From an uncultured Bacteroidales bacterium (GTDB lineage Bacteria > Bacteroidota > Bacteroidia > Bacteroidales > UBA932), in the NCBI GenBank assembly GCA_900317065.1, contig ONFK01000001.1:1-35533 (forward strand): a stretch of DNA of 35,533 nt, written 5' to 3'. The notes below the pieces were generated by a model. It ran no database searches. It saw only the letters and a list, made by a program, of their open reading frames with translations, and was not told the DNA's origin. Positions 8,332 through 23,939 of this stretch are shown piece by piece. A program made the translations under genes and the position numbers. Numbering within the stretch: the first letter of the stretch is position 1; each line of letters opens with the position of its first letter.

Positions 8332-10047
8332 ATGGCGACCGAACCGAAAGCAAAGATACATGTCGGAGCCGACACCTCTGATTTCGACAAAGGGGCGAAG
8401 TCGGTGAAGCAGGGCCTCCGTGACCTTGACAAGGTCGGCGGGGACGCCCTTGCATCCCTGGGCGAGGCTTTCGGAGTTAACACCGGTAGGGTCAACCAGA
8501 TGACCTCGGCCGTCGTGGGTCTCGGCCAGAAGCTCTCGCAGTCTGGGAATGCAGGAGTCAAGGCTTTTGGCGACATCCTCAAGTCCATCGGACCGGTCCA
8601 GGCGGGCATCGCCGGACTTGGCCTGGCCGCAGCCGCCGCAGGCTTCCGTGCGCTCAAGGCCGAAGCCGACAACTTCAAGTCTACCATTGACGGCCTTAAC
8701 CTGTCCATGGCGACGGAGACCTACATCTCCACCTATCGGCAGGCCATGCACGACGCCAATGCTGGTGTAGGGCAGAGTATCGGGGAGACCATGTCAGGGC
8801 TGGAGAAGCGGTGGGCCAGGTTCACCTCGAACGCCGGCGCTTTCCTTGCCACCTGGATCGGAGACAAGGAGACGGTCGGCATTGTCGATTCATGGCGAAA
8901 GGTTGCGGACGCATCGAGGGCGGCGACCAAGGCTGCCGAAGAAGGCGAAGTCCTCGGTAGCCAACTGGCGGATCTGAAAAAGCGTGAACTTACCCTGACG
9001 ACGGAGATCGCCGAGAAAGACAGGGACATCGCCGAGCAGATGCGTATCGCCCGGGACAACTCGAAGAGCGCCGCAGAGAGATCCGCGGCGGAAGAACAGG
9101 CCCGGACGCTGATCAATGAGAAATACGCTGCGCAGATCCAGATGGCCAAGGACATGGCCTCTGTCCAGGAGCAGATCGACGGCCTTGCAAACAATGACTA
9201 TGAGGCGACCAAGAACACGGAGGCCGCCAAGCAGCGTGTGCTCGCCCTGGAGGCGCAGCAGGCACAGGAGTTGGCTGGTATTGACCGGTTGTCTAACCGC
9301 ATATCGAACAGTGCATCCACGAATGCTGCCGCATGGCAGAAGGCCCGCGAGGAGGCCGAGAAGCTGGCCGCGCTCCACGCCCGTGGTGAAGCCTACGGTG
9401 CAGCTCTCGCGGGCGGCCTTGCATCCATCAGCACACCAGGTGTGATTGGGCCGACTCTTAGCATCTTGCCGCAGCGCCAGGACATCGAGCTCTTTAAGAG
9501 TACCCTGCAGGCTTACATGGGCGACTTCCAGCTATCCATCGGGTTCAAGGCTAATACTGAGCAGATCCGCGACATCACCAACGAGGTCAATTCCCTTGTC
9601 GAATCCGGAGTGACACGTTCGGCAGAGCTCATAGGTGGCCTTGTCGGCACCCTTGCTGGCGGCGGTGATGCGTGGGGCGATTTCAAAGATGCTGCTCTTT
9701 CAACCTTCGGAGACATGGCTATCGCTGTTGGTAAAATTGCGATACAGGAAGGACTCGCTGTTGCTGGTATTCAGGCGGCTCTTAAATCCGGTCAGTGGTA
9801 TCTCGCTGTTGCTGCGGGGGCAGCCCTGGTGGCGCTCGGATCTGCTGTCAAGTCCAGCCTCTCAGCGGTGGCATCCGGAGACTATAGTGCCGGTGGAGGC
9901 TACTCCGGCGGAAACTACTCTTCCTCTTCCGGCAACTATGAATCCCGGGAGATCAATGTCAATGTGACCGGATCTCTGGAGGCCGACGGGGACAAGCTCC
10001 TTGCCGTCATCGGGAGCGCGAATAAGAAGAATTACTACATCAGGTGA
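8332..10047 (+). CDS. Tape measure protein (571 aa)
   Basis: N-terminal IHVGADTSDF, Ala/Gly-rich helical sequence, hydrophobic C-terminal segments; follows the chaperones. Confidence 0.9.
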   Translation: MATEPKAKIHVGADTSDFDKGAKSVKQGLRDLDKVGGDALASLGEAFGVNTGRVNQMTSAVVGLGQKLSQSGNAGVKAFGDILKSIGPVQAGIAGLGLAAAAAGFRALKAEADNFKSTIDGLNLSMATETYISTYRQAMHDANAGVGQSIGETMSGLEKRWARFTSNAGAFLATWIGDKETVGIVDSWRKVADASRAATKAAEEGEVLGSQLADLKKRELTLTTEIAEKDRDIAEQMRIARDNSKSAAERSAAEEQARTLINEKYAAQIQMAKDMASVQEQIDGLANNDYEATKNTEAAKQRVLALEAQQAQELAGIDRLSNRISNSASTNAAAWQKAREEAEKLAALHARGEAYGAALAGGLASISTPGVIGPTLSILPQRQDIELFKSTLQAYMGDFQLSIGFKANTEQIRDITNEVNSLVESGVTRSAELIGGLVGTLAGGGDAWGDFKDAALSTFGDMAIAVGKIAIQEGLAVAGIQAALKSGQWYLAVAAGAALVALGSAVKSSLSAVASGDYSAGGGYSGGNYSSSSGNYESREINVNVTGSLEADGDKLLAVIGSANKKNYYIR

Positions 10048-10048
10048 T

Positions 10049-13000
10049 ATGGCGTGGAATAGGAAATATCGGTTTCGCTACGGCACTATCAACGGTGTAG
10101 ACATCAATATTTACATTGATGTACAGAACTACAGCGGTTCTGTCATCGAACGTGCCCTGGGGCGGTCGCCTGTCCTCAAGCGGACGGAGAACGGTCCTAT
10201 CTGCGGCACATCCCTCACCCTCTATGCCGAGTGCAAGGTCGACGGTGAGTTCGCCGAGCTCTACACGAGCAATCCCAACGAATATCGGGTTGAGGTCTTC
10301 CGCGGCAACAATCAGATCTGGACGGGATTCATCACCCCGGAGCTGTACAGTGAACCGTCTATCGCCCCTCCCTATGACGTGGAGATAGTTGCCACGGACG
10401 GGCTGGGCGAGCTGAAACTCCACAATTTTGAGCCGCAGGGCGAGGTCACCCTTCGGGCAATGCTGTTCTACCTTCTCTCTGCCTCCGGAGCAGGAAGGAG
10501 CATCTACACTGTATCGACCCTTCGGACGACTGCACAGAACGTCAACTCATTTATCAACAGCGCCAAGATCAACCTGGATTTCATGTCCGGCCAGACACGG
10601 TATGAGGTCCTGACACAGCTGCTCAACACCCTCCATGCGTCCATCACCATGCACAATGGAGACTGGCTCATTGTGCGGGAGACAGACCTTGTCATCGGCA
10701 GCGGTGAAGCCATCGGCGCGGCTTATACTGCTAACCGTGGATCCACGACCGTCGGGGCATCCATCAGTGGTGCTGTACTTCCAGTCGGGCAGATGGGGCA
10801 GGTCGACACATGGCCTGTCGGGCACTTGTCAACAAGGGTGGAACCGGCGAAGCGGTCTGTCACGATTGAAGCTCCCTGGCATGGGGTGAATCTCCTGAAG
10901 AATCCAGATATGGCGACGAACTCCCTCTGGGAGGGAACGACATCCTACTGGGAGGCGGGCAAATATATGCTGCCTGCTGGGGGCCTTTACGGGATTTATC
11001 AGGACATTCCGTTGAACCATTTCCAGAACGTACCGCTGGACATCTCTGTCCGCTGCTCCCGGAGAGCTGCGCTCATTGATGACATGAACTTCGTGGCGAT
11101 CACCCTCATGTTCACGGACAGCAACAGCATCGTGTACTACTACGAGAGCAAGGGTGGGAAATGGTCGAGCACGAGAGATGGGTATGACGAATACGATCTT
11201 GCCAACTACACACTGGACAGGAATGTCGCTGATGAATATACGCTCTCTGTCCCGGGCCTTCCGTTGACGGAAGATCTGAGCGGGACTCTCCGGGTGATCA
11301 TCAGGGGAAGAAACGCCTCCATCTTTGGTGCCTCCGTCCTCACAAGGGTCAACGCTGGATACAGAGACACTATTGTCATCAACAACGGTGCCCGTGGAAC
11401 TGGAGACACGACTGAGATCCTGGGCGGTCGGATGCTTTCCTCAACCGATCCGGTGTCGCCGAATGCACTGGAAGGTATCTGGCTGGATGCTTCCGGGGTT
11501 CCGATTGGGAGTTCTTTCCTGAACCGCCATTATACGGCTGGGAAGGACTATCTGTCCCTGACCGCATTGGACTACGCCATGTCTCTGGCTCTGCCCCGTC
11601 TCATCCTGACGGGTGTGGTGAATATTCCCGCTGAATGGGCTTTCCTCCCATTCGTTGTCAAATATCGTGGATCCTACTACCAGATCCGGACGTTCGAGTA
11701 CAATATCTTTGATGAGGAGCTGAACATTAATGCTATCTCCCTGCCTGCTGCGACACTGACAGTGGAGAGTGAGGTTGTGACGTCCATGGGCTATGCCAAG
11801 GCGGTTGCAAGTTCTTCTTCCTCTGGTGGAGGAGATACCCCTACCCCTACCCCCACGACGGTGAACGGGGGGACGGTGTTCTACGGGCACATCACCAGCA
11901 CAAAGGCGACGACCGCGAAGGTTGCGACGGTGACGGGGATGACGGCGGCGGACCTCAAGCCCGGCGCAACGGTCGTCCTTTTCTGCGACTACTCCAACTC
12001 CGCCACTGGCGCGACTCTGAACGTCAACTCCACCGGGGCCAAGCCTATGCGGGATATGGCGGCACTGGATGGGAGCGGATTTACATACGACTGGTCGCAG
12101 TACGAGACCCTGACCTTTGTTTATGACGGAACCTCCTGGAACCTTGTCAACAAGTTCAAGGCATACGGCAGCTACCGCGGCAACGTCAAGATCATCGGCT
12201 CGCTGGCCCTCCTCCTGGCCGCGTCCACCTATTCGGACGACCAGACGATCAGCGCCAGCACGGCGAAGGAGATCTACGACCTCATCCAGGGCGGGGGCGG
12301 CGGCGTGTCCTCCGTCGGCCTGACGATGCCGACCGGCTTCTCCGTGACCGGCTCCCCGGTGACCGGGTCCGGTACCCTCCAGGTGTCCCTGGCGAGCGGG
12401 TACAAGATGCTCAAGACAACGGAGTGGAACGAGGCCTACGTCATGCGGGCTCCCGTGCTGGAGATTCATCGCGGCTACCGCAGGGGCGAGCAGGCCCCCG
12501 TCACGCCGTACCTCATTGCAAAGCACCCGGCCATCGGAGCCATCAACCGGGCGGAGTTCGTCCTCATGGTCCGGACAGCCAGAAAGGGACGGAGGAGGGA
12601 CACAAAGCAGTCCTTCTACCGGAAGGCGTGGGGCTTGGCTATGGGCCAAGACGGAGAAGGGGCGCTGACCTTCGGAAGCACCGTCACCCTGACGGCCCTC
12701 CGGGAGTTCATATTGCACAACTACTGCTCCGGCTACCTGACAAACGTCTCCGCCATGACCTACGCCCAGTTCAAGCAGCTCACCGTACAGGTAGGGTTTG
12801 GACACCCTCAGGGGAACTTGGACGCATACGTAAAAAATATCAAGCACACGCGGGTGTTCGGGATTGCGGTACGGTACACCAATCCGGCATTCGCGGAGCT
12901 CGCCTCCGGCCCGCTGTCAGACCACACGGCGATGATCAAGTCCAATGGGACGGTCATCCCCCGGTGGATATACTCGGAGGTTGCACCGATCCTGGTGCGT

Positions 13001-13072
13001 TGCGAACGTGGAGCGCTGGACGGGACGGGAACCAACGACGGAGGAGTGATAGGGTTCCGGCTGCTGCCGTGA
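10049..13072 (+). CDS. Large tail tip / baseplate hub protein with fibre-like C-terminal modules (1007 aa)
   Basis: First gene after the tape measure; IWTGFITPELYSEP...IVATDGLGELK hub-like motif; S/G/PT linker, then ATLNVNSTGAKP...FVYDGTSW fibre module. Confidence 0.75.
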   Translation: MAWNRKYRFRYGTINGVDINIYIDVQNYSGSVIERALGRSPVLKRTENGPICGTSLTLYAECKVDGEFAELYTSNPNEYRVEVFRGNNQIWTGFITPELYSEPSIAPPYDVEIVATDGLGELKLHNFEPQGEVTLRAMLFYLLSASGAGRSIYTVSTLRTTAQNVNSFINSAKINLDFMSGQTRYEVLTQLLNTLHASITMHNGDWLIVRETDLVIGSGEAIGAAYTANRGSTTVGASISGAVLPVGQMGQVDTWPVGHLSTRVEPAKRSVTIEAPWHGVNLLKNPDMATNSLWEGTTSYWEAGKYMLPAGGLYGIYQDIPLNHFQNVPLDISVRCSRRAALIDDMNFVAITLMFTDSNSIVYYYESKGGKWSSTRDGYDEYDLANYTLDRNVADEYTLSVPGLPLTEDLSGTLRVIIRGRNASIFGASVLTRVNAGYRDTIVINNGARGTGDTTEILGGRMLSSTDPVSPNALEGIWLDASGVPIGSSFLNRHYTAGKDYLSLTALDYAMSLALPRLILTGVVNIPAEWAFLPFVVKYRGSYYQIRTFEYNIFDEELNINAISLPAATLTVESEVVTSMGYAKAVASSSSSGGGDTPTPTPTTVNGGTVFYGHITSTKATTAKVATVTGMTAADLKPGATVVLFCDYSNSATGATLNVNSTGAKPMRDMAALDGSGFTYDWSQYETLTFVYDGTSWNLVNKFKAYGSYRGNVKIIGSLALLLAASTYSDDQTISASTAKEIYDLIQGGGGGVSSVGLTMPTGFSVTGSPVTGSGTLQVSLASGYKMLKTTEWNEAYVMRAPVLEIHRGYRRGEQAPVTPYLIAKHPAIGAINRAEFVLMVRTARKGRRRDTKQSFYRKAWGLAMGQDGEGALTFGSTVTLTALREFILHNYCSGYLTNVSAMTYAQFKQLTVQVGFGHPQGNLDAYVKNIKHTRVFGIAVRYTNPAFAELASGPLSDHTAMIKSNGTVIPRWIYSEVAPILVRCERGALDGTGTNDGGVIGFRLLP

Positions 13073-13178
13073 AAAAGACCCGCCTCCGATGGAGAGCGGG
13101 GTCGAAAGTCATGCCTCCGATGGAGAGCGCTGACGAAAGTCCAGCCTCCGATGGAGAGCGGGGACCGGGACAAAGATA
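13072..13178 (-). ncRNA. Candidate small RNA of about 90 nt: -7 box, three 17-nt repeats, intrinsic terminator
   Basis: Minus-strand TATCTTTG at 13178-13171; repeats at 13082, 13113 and 13144; the last hairpin on the minus strand is followed by TTTTT. Confidence 0.5.
13082..13160. repeat. Three exact copies of GCCTCCGATGGAGAGCG with 31-bp period
   Basis: Copies at 13082-13098, 13113-13129 and 13144-13160; both 14-nt linkers contain CGAAAGTC. Confidence 0.97.
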
Positions 13179-13205
13179 GTGAAATATAGTTAAAAACAGA
13201 AAAAT

Positions 13206-14111
13206 ATGGGAGCGATTCTTACAATACCTAACGGCCGGCAGGGGTCGGACATGACCTTCCGGGGATCACTGGAAGACGGTGGGATGGCCGTCGACTGGTC
13301 CGGCATGAGCAAGATTGAGGCATGGCTGTTTTCGCACGACCAGAAGGCCCTATCCGGGCGCTGTACGGTCAGTGTGGACCCGAAGGACACGACCATCCTG
13401 ATATGCGAGTATTCGGCAAGCAAACCGCAATACCTCGGCATCAACTCCCTGTTCATCCGCGCCACGTACCACGGACGGACGAAGACCTACGACCGGAAGG
13501 CGATCAACATCGTGGAGCGGACCGACGAGGTGGCCGGCTCCGTCGTCCTGGACGACCCCATCGTGGACGTCCAGTTCACCGTTAAGGATTTCTCCTCCTC
13601 CATCCTGGACGACCTCCTTGCGGCCTGCGTCAAGGCCACGGAGGATGCCCGGAGGATCGCTGACGTGCACGTCGGCCCTCCCGGCCCGGCCGGTGTCGAC
13701 GAGGTGGAGGTGAGTGTCGGTGAGGAGACCGGAACCCCTTCCGCCGAATCCACCCTGGAGGACGGCAAGCTCACCATCCGTTTCGACGGTCTGAAAGGTC
13801 CGGAGGGAGACCGGGGACCGGCCGGCGTTGAGCGTGTCGTCGTGACGGTTGACAGCACCACGGGAGGGACACCATCCGGGACGGCAACCGTCGTGAACGG
13901 AGTGCTGACCCTTGCGCTCCACAACATGAAGGGCGACCCCGGCCAGCAGGGCAACTCCGGATACAGCGGAGCCGCCGGGGAGCTGGAGGTCGTGAACAAC
14001 CGTACCCAGGGCGGGGCTACGGCTGCATGGTCCGCCGAGCAGGGGAAACTCCTCTGCCAGGAGGTCGGATACCTCGGAGAGGTCGTTGAAACCATTGATG
14101 ACTGGATGTAA
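13206..14111 (+). CDS. Tail appendage / fibre-associated protein with short collagen-like GxY stretches
   Basis: GPPGPAG, GLKGPEGDRGPAG, KGDPGQQGNSG; VVNNRTQGGATAAWSAEQGKLL fibre motif. Confidence 0.7.
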   Translation: MGAILTIPNGRQGSDMTFRGSLEDGGMAVDWSGMSKIEAWLFSHDQKALSGRCTVSVDPKDTTILICEYSASKPQYLGINSLFIRATYHGRTKTYDRKAINIVERTDEVAGSVVLDDPIVDVQFTVKDFSSSILDDLLAACVKATEDARRIADVHVGPPGPAGVDEVEVSVGEETGTPSAESTLEDGKLTIRFDGLKGPEGDRGPAGVERVVVTVDSTTGGTPSGTATVVNGVLTLALHNMKGDPGQQGNSGYSGAAGELEVVNNRTQGGATAAWSAEQGKLLCQEVGYLGEVVETIDDWM

Positions 14112-16959: not shown

Positions 16960-19317
16960 ATGGCAAAGATTCAACCAGTCAGGGATTTAGAAAACAACCT
17001 CATCGCCCCCGTCACGCATGAAAGGGCGGTGTATGACAGCGAAGGATATACCGTCGAGCAGAAGCTGTCAGAGGTAAAGCCGTCCGACCTATACGGTCCG
17101 GCGAACTACGATGTGCGCAGTATCAATATCGCAGCGCTCCAATCATTTGCCGGTGCCCTTCTTAACAACGGGACATACGGCTCGGGGGAAGGGTCTCATT
17201 ACAGACTGCCGGTAACTCCCGGCGATGTCGTCAACATCACAACTGGAGAGACGTGTAGAATCTCGTTCTTGTCCAATGTTGGGAGATCGATTTCCGGGAA
17301 TACCGTTCCCGCCATATCTTCCTATTTGATGGATTCGCAGAAGGTCTATTATTTCCACGTCCCCGAGAACTGCGTTGCAATCGCCTTCTCCCATCTTGCG
17401 ACAGATGGGGTAACGGACCGTAGCCCCGTGTCGCTGTCGGTCGCAACATCGAAGATGGCAAAGAGCAATGACGACGGAAGTATCATACCAATGTCGGCTC
17501 CGCGATACATGATATCTGGAAACGGAGATAAGATTGTAGGCGCAAATATTTCAGATGCCATATCATATTTGTTCCCCGTCAAAGCCGGGCACACGTATTA
17601 TGTGTGGCCGACGTTCTCCGGCGCTCTCCGATATGCCCAGATTGCAAGCCTCCCGGACAACAATCTTGAAGTGAGCGTGTACGGGAATGCAACATCCACG
17701 CTGGGCGATTCCGGAATGTCAATCTCCGTCAAGCCAGAAACGGACGGGTATTTCTTCATTTGCTCATACAAGGCATCCGCTGCGGCGCTTTCGATTGTTG
17801 CGAAAGAAGTGACAGAGGATAATAGTGTGGGCTCTGTAAAGCAGTCCGTCAACAAAGTGCTATCGCTTTCGACCGGCTATGACGAGGTGGCGCTTGACGC
17901 ACTCGACGAAAGACCGTATGCCATCTTGCTTGATACGGGGCTGTACGGTACGAGCAATACGTATAAGCATGTACTTGTCCCGGTGTCGGCTGGGCAGGTC
18001 TTGAAAATCCAGGGGAACGAAACGAATCCAGCCAGGATTGCATGGCTTACAAGTGACAGCGACCCGGTGGCCTCCACGTGCCCGGCGTACCTTCCCGGTA
18101 CCCGCCTGTTCGTAGTTGAGAACGGCGTCTTGACTGTCCCCGACGGAGCCTCGTACATGTTTGTCTACCTCGGAATCAGCGGCCAGTATAAGCCCGCCTA
18201 TGTCGGCGTTTACACGGGAGAATCGAGCAGTGAATCAGGAGACAAGACGGACATCCTCTCGCTCAATCCGGAAAGCGAGTTCTTCCCGAAACTCATATCC
18301 GCAAACAAGCGATACTATACTTCGTCGACCACTAATTCTCCCTATCCGCTCGTCATCGGTCATATTTCTGACGTGCATGGTAACTGGACCAATGTCCGCC
18401 GCTTCCTCAAATTCTGCAATCACTACGGCAGCAAGATCAAATGCCTCATCAACACGGGTGACATCATTCCATCGTATCTATACCTTGACGGTGTGAAATA
18501 CACAGGAGCGGCTGATTATAACGCGATCGAAGGAATCGAGAACGTGTTGAATGTCATTGGCAATCACGACACGGCAAGCAGGGAAGGCTCATCTAATTGG
18601 GATTGGCAGGCGTGTGTTGGCAAGGTTGCGTATGATGAATATTTTGCTCCGCACATCGCCTCATGGGGAGTCACCCAGCCGACCAATGCAGCCGCGAATG
18701 GCTATTGCTACTATTACAAGGATTTCACCGCCAACAACGTCCGCCTCGTCGTGACCGATGTGATGGGATATGACGAAACGGAGGATGCATGGCTCGCCTC
18801 CGTCCTTGAAAGCGCAAGGGACGCGGGGCTGCACGTTGTCATAGCCACGCATTTCTCATCCTCTCTCCCGGCAGCGGAAGGGTATGACAGGGCCTTTGAC
18901 AAGTTCCCCATCAATTACAGCACGACATACGAGGTGGGAACGAACGCCGTGAACCTGAATGCCTACAACAAAAAGGCGTACATGATGATGGAAGCGGTTG
19001 ATGCCTTCATGCAGGCAGGAGGAATCTTCGTCGGGTACATCCAGGGCCACTATCATTGCGATTTCATTGCGCGGGTTGCCAAGTACCCGAACCAGCTCAT
19101 CTTCTCCATCGGCTCCAGCAAGACGGGAGAGGTCCGGGATTACATGCACACCATCGGCCAGAGAGACCAGGACGAGTTTCAGATTGTCGCTATTGACACG
19201 TACACCAAGAATGTGAAGGTGTACAAGGTTGGAGCGAATGTAGACCGCGTTGGCCGTCACGTCAATTCCGCCTGCGTTTCTTACGAGACCCACCAGGTGA
19301 TTGCCGAAGGATATTGA
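16960..19317 (+). CDS. Tail-associated protein with repeated beta modules and C-terminal calcineurin-like metallophosphoesterase domain
   Basis: HISDVH, NTGD, GNHD, IATH and GHYH metal-binding motifs; N-terminal PVTHERAVYDSEG attachment-type motif. Confidence 0.85.
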   Translation: MAKIQPVRDLENNLIAPVTHERAVYDSEGYTVEQKLSEVKPSDLYGPANYDVRSINIAALQSFAGALLNNGTYGSGEGSHYRLPVTPGDVVNITTGETCRISFLSNVGRSISGNTVPAISSYLMDSQKVYYFHVPENCVAIAFSHLATDGVTDRSPVSLSVATSKMAKSNDDGSIIPMSAPRYMISGNGDKIVGANISDAISYLFPVKAGHTYYVWPTFSGALRYAQIASLPDNNLEVSVYGNATSTLGDSGMSISVKPETDGYFFICSYKASAAALSIVAKEVTEDNSVGSVKQSVNKVLSLSTGYDEVALDALDERPYAILLDTGLYGTSNTYKHVLVPVSAGQVLKIQGNETNPARIAWLTSDSDPVASTCPAYLPGTRLFVVENGVLTVPDGASYMFVYLGISGQYKPAYVGVYTGESSSESGDKTDILSLNPESEFFPKLISANKRYYTSSTTNSPYPLVIGHISDVHGNWTNVRRFLKFCNHYGSKIKCLINTGDIIPSYLYLDGVKYTGAADYNAIEGIENVLNVIGNHDTASREGSSNWDWQACVGKVAYDEYFAPHIASWGVTQPTNAAANGYCYYYKDFTANNVRLVVTDVMGYDETEDAWLASVLESARDAGLHVVIATHFSSSLPAAEGYDRAFDKFPINYSTTYEVGTNAVNLNAYNKKAYMMMEAVDAFMQAGGIFVGYIQGHYHCDFIARVAKYPNQLIFSIGSSKTGEVRDYMHTIGQRDQDEFQIVAIDTYTKNVKVYKVGANVDRVGRHVNSACVSYETHQVIAEGY

Positions 19318-21952: not shown

Positions 21953-23167
21953 TTACGGGTTGACCTGAAGCGGCGGATCTTTGTATCCCCAAACATAGTC
22001 AATCACCTGTCTATTGGCTTCATCAATCTTCCTTTCGTCCCGCTTGATATAAATCGCCGTAGTACGGTTACCAGCAGACACATGGCCCATCCCAAGCGAT
22101 ATTGTCGGGTCAGGGATGTCAAGCTCGGCGGCAAGTGTCGCCCAGGTGTGCCTGGCCCAGTTTGAAGAACAGTCAGGCTCGATGGGTCTTCCATCGGGGC
22201 CCTCGATTCGCTTCAGCGCCTCCCACATCCGCCGAGCATAGTCGTGGGGGTTAGAGTAGCGGTCGAATACGGATAGAAGATGTTCCTCCCCTTTCCACCT
22301 TTCAATGATCTCCCTGGCCTCCGGCTCCACTCGGATGCTGTAGAGGTGACCGGTCTTATTGCGCCGATACTCCACACGCCCGTCCTTCAGATCCTTCCAT
22401 GTAAGTGAGGCAAGGTCACTGACATTGATCCCCCGGAAATAGAGCATGAGCATGAACACATCTCGGTGCATGGCATCGTACCTGTACGTGATGTCTGCCG
22501 TCGCATAGGCTCTGACCTGTCCAATGGTGAGGGCCTTTTTCCGCGTCTCCTCCGTCCTGATCTTGAACTTGCGGAACGGATAGGCAGTGGTGTATTCCTC
22601 GTCCAGGGCGAAGTTGCAGATAGCCTTGACATTCCTCAGATGTACCGCCCTGGCATTGATTTTCCCGCCGATGAAAGTGTCAAACCCATGCAGCCACAGA
22701 CGGTCGATGTCTTCCATATATAATATGTCAGATCCCGTGTATGCCCGAACCTTATCGATGGTATAGCCATAGAGTCGCCTGGTGCTCTCCTTGTCCTTAG
22801 TGCTGACGCATCTCCTGGCGATCTCATAGAAGGTCAGACGACTGTCCTCTTCTGGAACGTCGTCCATATCTGAAGCCGTGAGCAGCTTCTTCAGCCGTCC
22901 AGAGGAAAGCCCGCTAAACCGTCCCTCCTCCCGGAGTCGCAACACCCGGGCGGTAACCCTGGTGAGCTGTGAGGACAGGACATCGTTCAGGCGTTTCGCG
23001 TCCTTCCTTTCCATCACCTTCCCAGCGGCAACGTCCCACTGGAGTTGTGTCACCGAAACGCCGGTGGCGATGTATACGTTGGTGCCGTAGCCTACGGCAA
23101 TCTTGACCGGGTAAGTGTCATCCTTCAGTGCCCGTCGTGTGTCAAGTCTTAGTGAACATTTAGCCAT
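21953..23167 (-). CDS. int: Tyrosine integrase, Bacteroidota type (arm-binding, SAM-like and catalytic domains), 404 aa
   Basis: Start MAKCSLRLDTRR at 23167; FRGINVSDL, RNKTG, WARHTWATLA, MGH and TTAIY motifs. Confidence 0.95.
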   Translation of the reverse strand: MAKCSLRLDTRRALKDDTYPVKIAVGYGTNVYIATGVSVTQLQWDVAAGKVMERKDAKRLNDVLSSQLTRVTARVLRLREEGRFSGLSSGRLKKLLTASDMDDVPEEDSRLTFYEIARRCVSTKDKESTRRLYGYTIDKVRAYTGSDILYMEDIDRLWLHGFDTFIGGKINARAVHLRNVKAICNFALDEEYTTAYPFRKFKIRTEETRKKALTIGQVRAYATADITYRYDAMHRDVFMLMLYFRGINVSDLASLTWKDLKDGRVEYRRNKTGHLYSIRVEPEAREIIERWKGEEHLLSVFDRYSNPHDYARRMWEALKRIEGPDGRPIEPDCSSNWARHTWATLAAELDIPDPTISLGMGHVSAGNRTTAIYIKRDERKIDEANRQVIDYVWGYKDPPLQVNP

Positions 23168-23168
23168 A

Positions 23169-23201
23169 TTTGCTGAAAATTTGCTGAAAATTTGCTGAAA
23201 A
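23169..23201. repeat. Three tandem TTTGCTGAAAA (11 bp): candidate integrase arm-type sites
   Basis: Exact copies at 23169, 23180 and 23191; the motif recurs on the far side of the att core. Confidence 0.85.
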
Positions 23202-23239
23202 ATGTACCCCAATATACCAAAATGTACCCGTATATACCA
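23201..23239. repeat. Two direct repeats AATGTACCC..ATATACCA with 20-bp period: candidate Xis/accessory-factor sites
   Basis: AATGTACCCCAATATACCA (23201-23219) and AATGTACCCGTATATACCA (23221-23239). Confidence 0.7.
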
Positions 23240-23329
23240 TTTATCGGCGACACCATTTGAAGCGTATACAACGAAAAAAGTGAACCAAGAACCGCGTAAA
23301 ATGCTGATTCTCAATTCACTTTCGTTATG

Positions 23330-23374
23330 TGAGGACTGGCAGATTTGAACTGCCGACCTCTTGCCTGTCAAGCA
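23330..23374 (-). other. attP core: 3' half of tRNA-Val(GAC)
   Basis: Minus strand TGC-TTGACAG-GCAAG-AGGTC-GGCAG-TTCAAAT-CTGCC-AGTCCTC-A gives the anticodon loop (GAC), variable loop, T-arm and acceptor 3' strand; D-arm and 5' acceptor strand are absent. Confidence 0.9.
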
Positions 23375-23428
23375 TATAGGGAGCTTATAATTAACTGTGT
23401 ATCAATATATCTAAGGGCAAAAAATCCA

Positions 23429-23445
23429 TTTGCTGAAAATTTGCT
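23429..23445. repeat. TTTGCTGAAAA plus partial TTTGCT: arm-type sites on the other attP arm
   Basis: Same 11-mer and orientation as 23169-23201. Confidence 0.8.
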
Positions 23446-23939
23446 TATAGATTGTGATGCTTACGATAGGCCTCCAGGTAGCCTGGAACATCTTCTCCGG
23501 GGTTAATCAAAATCTTGTCAACGTCCTTCGTGATGTTCAAAAGATTGCCGTATTTATCTAATTGCACCCAGACAAGATTTCCAGGACGGTTATACGTAAC
23601 GATGCAACTATACGCTGCCGGTTCCTCGAGGATGCTGCCTGCCGCCTGCTTCAAAGAATCAAGTACAGCCTCCCATGCCAGAGCCTCTTTTAGGCCTTCC
23701 TCATCCTTCTCCCCCTTATAGGTCTTGAACATGTGGGCGGCAAATTCTGTGTTGCTCTGGGCCCTCTCAATACGATAGTCAAGGTTATCCCCGTAAGTGA
23801 CCGTGTCCACTTTCACAGAAAGGATACGGTCCACGTCATTGTAAGTGCTGCGAACAAAATGTTCAGCCCGGGATGAAATTGTGCTCTCGCCAGAGCAGGC
23901 CACCACGAAGAGGGCGGCAAACAAAACAATCTTTTTCAT
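23445..23939 (-). CDS. Lipoprotein co-transcribed with the repressor; candidate superinfection-exclusion protein
   Basis: MKKIVLFAALFVVA-C-SG lipobox; starts 4 nt after the cI stop. Confidence 0.8.
   Translation of the reverse strand: MKKIVLFAALFVVACSGESTISSRAEHFVRSTYNDVDRILSVKVDTVTYGDNLDYRIERAQSNTEFAAHMFKTYKGEKDEEGLKEALAWEAVLDSLKQAAGSILEEPAAYSCIVTYNRPGNLVWVQLDKYGNLLNITKDVDKILINPGEDVPGYLEAYRKHHNL

What the first reader, a model, noticed from the sequence alone, without database searches (positions are those of the whole stretch)
13072..13178. Triple 17-nt hairpin repeat with 31-nt period, framed as an antisense small-RNA gene inside the tail operon
Seen: three exact GCCTCCGATGGAGAGCG copies, each with a CTCC-GAT-GGAG palindrome, joined by partly conserved 14-nt linkers (CGAAAGTC). 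On the minus strand the array is preceded by a Bacteroidota -7 box (TATCTTTG, 13178-13171), and the last copy extends into a GC stem plus TTTTT. This is promoter, three repeats, terminator in about 90 nt with no ORF. It runs opposite to the late operon and the same way as cI/int, so it could be expressed from the prophage. Inference: a multivalent RNA decoy (RNA-binding-protein sponge, repeat-mimic RNA anti-CRISPR, or type III antitoxin mimic). Alternatively it is three in-phase DNA sites, since 31 bp is about three helical turns. No clean -33 element is visible.
Basis: partly seen in the sequence, partly recalled or inferred. Interest (0 to 1): 0.8.

Follow-up and report, generated by a model that had tools for sequence, protein, structure and literature searches.

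The report
Phage tail-tip protein's three-hairpin partner RNA
Gut phages that carry an undescribed, positively charged domain at the end of a tail protein also carry, facing that gene, a predicted small RNA of three matched hairpins that likely binds the three copies of the tail-tip protein, which would make an RNA a partner in building a virus tail; neither the transcript nor the binding has been tested.

Summary
The repeat is real and is no local accident. Each 31-nt unit is a 27-nt hairpin plus a 4-nt linker; on the minus strand a Bacteroidota -7 box, three hairpins and a U-tract form a predicted 90-95-nt RNA that ends at the stop codon of the tail-tip gene. That gene ends in an unnamed, basic, ~210-residue domain. 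In 46 of 46 distinct complete loci carrying the domain the box follows (control 5 of 146 gene ends), 37 of 46 with a three-copy repeat (control 1 of 146), never four. G-U pairs (60 of 80 units, no A-C) and compensatory base stems point to RNA on the minus strand. Periods of 28-37 nt argue against phased DNA sites. The repeat core follows the domain tree. The carrier protein has a predicted Tal/gp27-type hub, a trimer fold. Best reading: three hairpins bind three domains as a cap or scaffold in tail assembly (0.45); antidote to a delivered domain is the main rival (0.2). No Rfam, Pfam or literature match was found. The scan noted a like pairing before on other DNA (e1-8342640). No transcript or binding is shown.

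The parts
13171..13178 (-). Bacteroidota -7 promoter box (TATCTTTG)
   Evidence: Sequence; present 89-151 nt behind the stop codon in 46 of 46 domain loci, 45 as TAnnTTTG and 1 as TATCTTTA; consensus as in PMC7366714; motif enriched upstream of G000 genes, 310 of 867 versus 22-61 for four control words
13072..13166 (-). Predicted small RNA, about 90-95 nt, three separate hairpins and a U-tract; ends are inferred
   Evidence: Minimum-energy fold gives three hairpins, loop-closing pair probabilities 0.79-0.95; first stem starts 2-5 nt behind the box in 36 of 46 loci
13139..13165 (-). Hairpin 1 (5'-most)
13108..13134 (-). Hairpin 2
13077..13103 (-). Hairpin 3, doubling as predicted intrinsic terminator stem
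13072..13076 (-). U-tract, abutting the stop codon of the tail gene
   Evidence: a run of 4 or more in 44 of 46 loci
12443..13069 (+). Unnamed basic C-terminal domain (residues 800-1008), the likely RNA partner
   Evidence: 90 hits among 50%-identity cluster representatives; ends within 30 residues of the C-terminus in 102 of 102 proteins; net charge positive in 46 of 46, median +11; model pLDDT 92, beta-sandwich with insertions, no clear fold match
10046..13072 (+). 1008-residue tail-tip gene: predicted Tal/gp27-type hub with an inserted carbohydrate-binding-like module, a low-confidence stalk, then the basic domain
   Evidence: Model pLDDT 78; Foldseek hits to baseplate hubs, MuSo2 tail protein, Mu gp44 and VgrG at E 1e-6 to 2e-5, and CBM16 at E 7e-5
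13206..14111 (+). Next tail gene; not a fixed part of the module
   Evidence: The downstream gene falls into 12 BLAST clusters among 44 scored loci

Best explanation
The array is a conserved promoter-three hairpins-terminator unit, predicted to make a ~90-nt RNA that likely binds the basic C-terminal domain of the facing tail protein, one hairpin per chain of a predicted trimer, and likely acts as a cap or scaffold while the tail tip is assembled. Shown: the layout, its strict link to the domain in both directions, the fixed number three, the minus-strand pairing pattern, the domain's positive charge and terminal position. Predicted: the hub fold of the carrier and the beta-sandwich fold of the domain. 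Inferred: transcription by the host's main sigma factor; that the invariant hairpin tops are the binding sites while the differing base stems keep the three copies from cross-pairing; binding to the domain (about 0.7 on its own); and the role, in which the RNA holds the three C-termini together and shields their basic surface from other nucleic acid, in the place and manner of a tail-fibre assembly chaperone.
For: Domain to RNA: 46 of 46 distinct complete loci have the box, 37 of 46 a three-copy repeat of 10 nt or more, none a four-copy repeat over 6 nt; controls 5 and 1 of 146 other gene ends. RNA to domain: all 5 arrays among 47 viral pattern hits, all 10 among 51 metagenome hits and the one strong model hit in 150 genus genomes lie directly behind the domain. 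Five loci keep three repeats plus a separate terminator (L130, L169, L172, L145, L162). Strand: fourth pair from the loop is G-U or U-G in 60 of 80 distinct units and A-C in 0; minus strand more stable in 41 of 46 loci. Structure: 9 of 25 pairs change on both sides, 91.9% of cells paired against 37-63% when slid; base stems of 4 or more pairs in 17 of 30 own versus 5 of 60 swapped flank pairs. The hairpin-top class follows the domain tree: 14 rows with the GAGGC-type 3' arm form one clade (86/86), 22 others a second (95/90), while the downstream gene changes freely. Domain basic in 46 of 46, rest of the same proteins in 2 of 35. Carrier is Tal/gp27-like; Tal is a trimer (PMC7291167); collagen triplet runs precede the domain in 6 of 46 loci and 9 of 102 proteins. 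Protein chaperones of fibres bind 3:3 and travel with the fibre gene between phage families (PMC9608196, PMC10579305).
Against: No transcript and no protein-RNA contact was observed. Adjacent genes are inherited together, so agreement of RNA class and domain tree does not by itself show co-evolution, and 12 of the 14 loci of the window's clade were found through the RNA pattern. A host-type promoter would be active in a lysogen, when no tail is built. In the window itself the plus strand folds more stably (-46.6 versus -40.6), as in 5 of 46 loci. In 8 of 46 loci the computed fold cross-pairs copies 1 and 2. In 9 of 46 loci the three hairpins share no 10-nt repeat, including the four most distant homologues of one group. 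One contig of a close strain changes the loop A (13090). The trimer is inferred from fold likeness and collagen runs; most short carriers were not modelled. The structure counted was derived from the same alignment.
Confidence: 0.45

Rival explanations
1. RNA antidote: the basic domain is harmful to the cell (for instance by binding host DNA or RNA) or is delivered from the tail tip into the next host, and the steadily made RNA neutralises it in the producing cell and in lysogens, as an immunity gene does behind a C-terminal toxin domain.
For: C-terminal domain on a hub of VgrG/Tal type with a cognate element directly behind it; host-type promoter fits presence before the late gene is made; module moves between unrelated carriers.
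Against: No nuclease or toxin fold or family match; an antidote would not need exactly three hairpins; the domain is one family, not a swappable set of toxins.
Confidence: 0.2
2. Regulatory antisense RNA: it pairs with the late mRNA between the two genes, perhaps with the tail protein as sensor, and sets the output of downstream genes.
For: Perfect cis complement of the late transcript; convergent layout.
Against: It covers neither the coding region nor the next start region (13190-13206); best match to 34 start regions is 4-8 nt; cis-antisense needs no repeated tops; the downstream gene is not constant.
Confidence: 0.1
3. Decoy for a host protein (sponge, RNA anti-CRISPR, type III antitoxin mimic).
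For: Multivalent repeats with own promoter and terminator; orientation shared with int and cI.
Against: Never found away from the domain; core differs by domain clade; no likeness to the G000 CRISPR repeat (score 7, shuffles mean 5.9, max 9); no Rfam match.
Confidence: 0.08
4. Three double-stranded DNA sites (or DNA hairpins) bound by the domain, for example to repress the facing promoter.
For: Cores are near-palindromes; the weakest-tier fold hits include Rel-homology DNA-binding domains (E 0.13-0.7; Z at most 3.8).
Against: Periods 28-37 nt, 52 of 74 at 28-30; one-sided G-U pattern; base stems differ between copies yet stay paired; promoter and U-tract frame the hairpins exactly.
Confidence: 0.07
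5. Neutral duplication of a terminator hairpin.
For: The last hairpin is followed by a U-tract.
Against: Same layout in 46 of 46 loci down to distant domain homologues; repeats kept where the terminator is a separate hairpin; promoter box conserved.
Confidence: 0.02

Closest known systems
Tail-fibre assembly chaperones and transient caps (Pam3 gp25, Alteromonas V22 gp27 / A5, Mu Tfa; PMC9608196 abstract, PMC10579305 abstract and introduction)
   Same: Cognate partner of a trimeric tail protein's distal end, three binding units, inherited with the tail gene across phage families
   Different: Those are proteins; here the partner is a predicted RNA on the opposite strand with its own promoter, and binding is untested
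Type III toxin-antitoxin systems (ToxIN, CptIN, TenpIN; PMC12283969 passages)
   Same: Short tandem RNA repeats between promoter and terminator next to a cognate protein gene
   Different: There the repeats lie upstream on the same strand, form pseudoknots and bind an endoribonuclease; here they face the 3' end, form plain hairpins, and the protein is a tail domain with no ToxN-like match
phi29 packaging RNA (recalled, no call)
   Same: A phage non-coding RNA that partners a structural assembly
   Different: Acts at the head portal as a ring of separate RNAs; no Rfam match here; this unit is tied to the tail
Evolved VgrG/Tal and MuF-type C-terminal toxins with downstream immunity genes (recalled, apart from Tal extensions in PMC7291167)
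   Same: C-terminal extra domain on a hub-type protein with a cognate element directly behind it
   Different: Immunity there is a protein; no toxin fold is recognised here

Membership tests
Type III antitoxin RNA | Repeats and terminator upstream of the toxin gene in one operon | tested here: not met
   RNA unit is downstream and on the opposite strand in 46 of 46 loci; criterion from PMC12283969
Type III antitoxin RNA | Cognate protein is a ToxN/CptN/TenpN-type endoribonuclease | tested here: inconclusive
   No Pfam, PADLOC, NCBIfam or PDB sequence match; no such fold among listed structural hits, which does not exclude one
Type III antitoxin RNA | Each repeat forms a pseudoknot | not tested
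   Folding tools used do not model pseudoknots; triloop hairpins leave little room
RNA anti-CRISPR (solitary repeat unit; definition recalled) | Resembles a host CRISPR repeat | tested here: not met
   47-nt repeat of G000 scores within shuffles; no Rfam CRISPR repeat match. Only one host array was available
CsrB/RsmZ-type sponge (definition recalled) | Repeated GGA in unpaired loops | tested here: not met
   GG is paired in the stem and the third base varies with its partner: U-A 44, C-G 25, G-C 6, A-U 4 of 80 units
Tail-fibre assembly chaperone (Tfa-like) | Is a protein encoded next to the fibre gene | tested here: not met
   No ORF fits the unit; works-like claim only
Tail-fibre assembly chaperone (Tfa-like) | Binds the distal end of the trimer and is needed for folding or capping | not testable with these tools
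   No protein-RNA folding tool or experiment available
Diversity-generating retroelement target hairpin (recalled) | Template repeat and reverse transcriptase | tested here: not met
   No long repeat of the gene's 3' end in the window or G000; no reverse transcriptase among the 21 and 29 window proteins scanned
Any Rfam 15 family | Score at or above the gathering threshold | tested here: not met
   0 in the window, 0 in 20 homologous loci, one chance hit at E 7.7
Tal/gp27-type tail hub (carrier protein) | gp27-like N-terminal fold, gene following the tape measure gene | tested here: met
   Foldseek probability 1.0, E 1e-6 to 2e-5 on a predicted model; directly follows the 571-residue gene at 8332-10047, taken as tape measure from position and composition only

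The most novel reading that the evidence does not exclude
The RNA stays on the finished virus particle as a one-RNA, three-protein complex at the tail tip: a structural RNA in the tail of a DNA phage, used as a portable trimerisation and capping device by siphoviruses and larger phages of gut Bacteroidota, with sequence-specific RNA-domain pairs in each lineage.
Probability: 0.2. Interest if true: 0.95.

Novelty: categorically new. Interest (0 to 1): 0.8.

Why it matters
Phage tails are thought of as all-protein machines, with protein chaperones. A small RNA that is never separated from one tail domain, always carries three binding units and changes with that domain points to an undescribed ribonucleoprotein step in tail assembly or infection in gut and rumen phages. 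It also offers a set of natural, probably orthogonal RNA-hairpin/protein pairs. The module is small (a ~210-residue domain and a ~90-nt RNA), so binding, specificity, stoichiometry and toxicity can be tested directly in vitro and in a laboratory Bacteroides strain.

Tried and rejected
Three-copy complex prediction of the domain: no answer, score 0.00, no evidence either way. Fold of the domain: no Foldseek match at E 0.001 in PDB or BFVD, best VIA Z 3.9 among 48,161 chains, generic beta-sandwiches; ESM Atlas best 0.84, a lead at most. Shorter stand-alone close homologues: none by the word-based search, though the profile search did find 230-430-residue carriers. Cultured phages: no match for five domain variants in 50,697 records. 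Host genomes: DNA search 0 of 100 relatives, pattern 0 of 400 family genomes, domain profile 0 of 400 order genomes; the weak RNA-model hit in G555 (24.6 bits) lies in coding DNA without the domain and was set aside. Nine of 12 exact 17-mer hits were unrelated single copies and L012 showed no array; 42 of 47 and 41 of 51 two-copy pattern hits lacked the array-plus-box layout. Hammerhead, DGR and Shine-Dalgarno-decoy readings were considered from memory and dropped: no Rfam hit, no template repeat, and G000 rarely uses such sites (52 of 877). Literature: searches returned 0 papers; searches listed none on this element by title or abstract start. The catalogue of over 10,000 viral candidate RNAs (PMC10690425) gave no hit in readable supplements, but its alignment archives and PDFs could not be read, so an unnamed entry there is not excluded.

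Full report
Setting. The window is contig C145 of assembly G000, a complete circular temperate phage: 36-nt terminal repeat, terminase, capsid, integrase and repressor, and a 39-nt stretch at 23336-23374 that matches a tRNA-Val of G000 at 92%, a likely attachment site. G000 uses Bacteroidota-type promoters: TAnnTTTG lies in 310 of 867 AT-rich upstream regions against 22-61 for four control words. The array fills the gap between a 1008-residue gene (10046-13072) and a 301-residue gene (13206-14111), both on the plus strand.

Three exact 17-mers lie 31 nt apart and are unique in G000. The flanks of each copy pair with each other, so each unit is a 27-nt hairpin with a 4-nt linker. Read on the minus strand from the -7 box, the fold is three separate hairpins (closing-pair probabilities 0.79-0.95) and a U-tract; the plus strand is more stable in this window (-46.6 against -40.6 kcal/mol) only because copy 1 cross-pairs with copy 3. 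Rfam has no match.

Homologues. Two of 12 exact 17-mer hits in viral contigs were homologous arrays. Two-copy patterns gave 5 arrays among 47 viral hits and 10 among 51 metagenome hits; every one lies directly behind a gene ending in the same ~210-residue domain. A profile of that domain found 90 hits among cluster representatives (one, P0094, looks spurious), and the domain ends within 30 residues of the C-terminus in 102 of 102 proteins. I then searched from the protein side with a DNA pattern for its conserved motif: 33 of 45 viral hits and 8 of 22 genome hits carry the domain. Pooled, 71 locus records collapse to 48 distinct loci; 2 end too close to the stop codon and were dropped, leaving 46, the window included. 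All 46 have the box 89-151 nt behind the stop codon, 44 an A-run at the stop, 37 a three-copy repeat of at least 10 nt with one mismatch allowed, and none a four-copy repeat above 6 nt; of 146 other gene ends in the same loci, 5 have the box, 1 the repeat, none both. With pairing limited to 48 nt, 38 of 46 fold into three stems and 8 into two because copies 1 and 2 cross-pair. Five loci keep three repeats and add a different terminator hairpin. A covariance model of the window's class hit 2 of 150 genus genomes; the strong hit again sits behind the domain, the weak one is in coding DNA. Named hosts are Bacteroidaceae, Muribaculaceae and Bacteroidales bins; four other bins bear non-Bacteroidota labels, which I take, untested, as misbinned phage contigs. 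Carriers include siphovirus-like loci and one locus with a different major capsid protein (its crAss-like label is recalled).

RNA, on the minus strand. From 32 loci (10 with other loop types were left out, 4 gave no triple) I took 96 units, 80 distinct. The fourth pair from the loop is G-U or U-G in 60, Watson-Crick in 15 and A-C in none. The loop was required to begin with A in that script, so its conservation is partly built in. The minus strand is the more stable in 41 of 46 loci. In a 14-row alignment 9 of 25 pairs change on both sides, 91.9% of cells pair, no shuffle of 500 reaches that and slid controls give 37-63% (structure taken from the same alignment). Base stems are unit-specific: 4 or more pairs in 17 of 30 own against 5 of 60 swapped flank pairs. 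In close strains the four variable places inside the array are three internal-loop bases and one loop base, none in a stem. Periods are 28-37 nt, 31-32 in only 20 of 74, against phased DNA sites. The -7 consensus, and the frequent lack of a -33 element, are as described in PMC7366714 (passages).

The partner. The domain's net charge is positive in 46 of 46 loci (median +11), the rest of the same proteins in 2 of 35. Its model is confident (pLDDT 92) and beta-rich but has no clear structural relative and no family name. On the domain tree, loci with the window's hairpin top form one clade of 14 (support 86/86, not starred), and the GGNUGC-type tops lie in another of 22 (95/90); two members of the first clade were found by protein alone. 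Linkage can give this pattern without binding. The gene behind the RNA falls into 12 clusters among 44 loci, from further tail genes to a holin, so the constant neighbour is the domain. The whole window protein models as a Tal/gp27-type hub with a carbohydrate-binding-like insert, a low-confidence stalk and the domain at the end. Tal proteins are trimers with varied C-terminal extensions (PMC7291167, passages), and collagen runs precede the domain in 6 of 46 loci and 9 of 102 proteins.

Mechanism. Three like hairpins, a likely trimer and a basic surface fit one RNA binding three domains; I put binding at about 0.7. For its purpose I favour a cap or scaffold during tail-tip assembly (0.45), by analogy with protein chaperones that bind fibres 3:3 and move with them between phage families (PMC9608196 abstract; PMC10579305 abstract and introduction). 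The host-type promoter fits an antidote to a harmful or delivered domain at least as well (0.2). Antisense control (0.1), host-protein decoy (0.08), DNA sites (0.07) and terminator duplication (0.02) fit worse. It fails the layout test for type III antitoxins (PMC12283969, passages) and shows no likeness to the host CRISPR repeat.

Novelty. Six literature searches showed no description; the alignments of the large viral candidate-RNA catalogue PMC10690425 could not be read. No cultured phage in the collection carries the domain. Verdict: a real, widespread, undescribed RNA-plus-tail-domain module; transcript, binding and role remain to be shown.

Noticed in passing
window 21909-21834 (minus strand): A second box-hairpins-U-tract unit directly behind the integrase (about 70 nt, -39 kcal/mol); no match above 10 nt elsewhere in the window, so no sign of early-gene tags.
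   Followed up: partly
window 23336-23374; G000 C205:719-757: Likely attP core matching part of a host tRNA-Val(CAC) at 92%.
   Followed up: partly
window 23157-23205 and 23428-23454: 11-nt tandem repeats (ATTTGCTGAAA type) on both sides of the att-like site, possibly integrase arm sites.
   Followed up: no
window 21953-23371: The long open frame for the integrase starts far upstream of the Pfam arm domain (residue 76 on) and spans the att-like site; the true start is probably near 23180.
   Followed up: no
window 16960-19317: 785-residue tail-region protein ending in a calcineurin-like phosphoesterase domain.
   Followed up: no
L142:3674-3830, L133, L157, L164: The most distant domain homologues (about 245 residues, before a holin) face a 125-150-nt unit of three unlike, longer hairpins; L143 in the same clade has three true repeats.
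   Followed up: partly
window 13112 and 13130: In three runs these two mirror internal-loop bases change together and stay unpaired.
   Followed up: partly
G000 C191:8754-9722: CRISPR array of 13 repeats of 47 nt; no spacer within 10 mismatches of this phage.
   Followed up: yes
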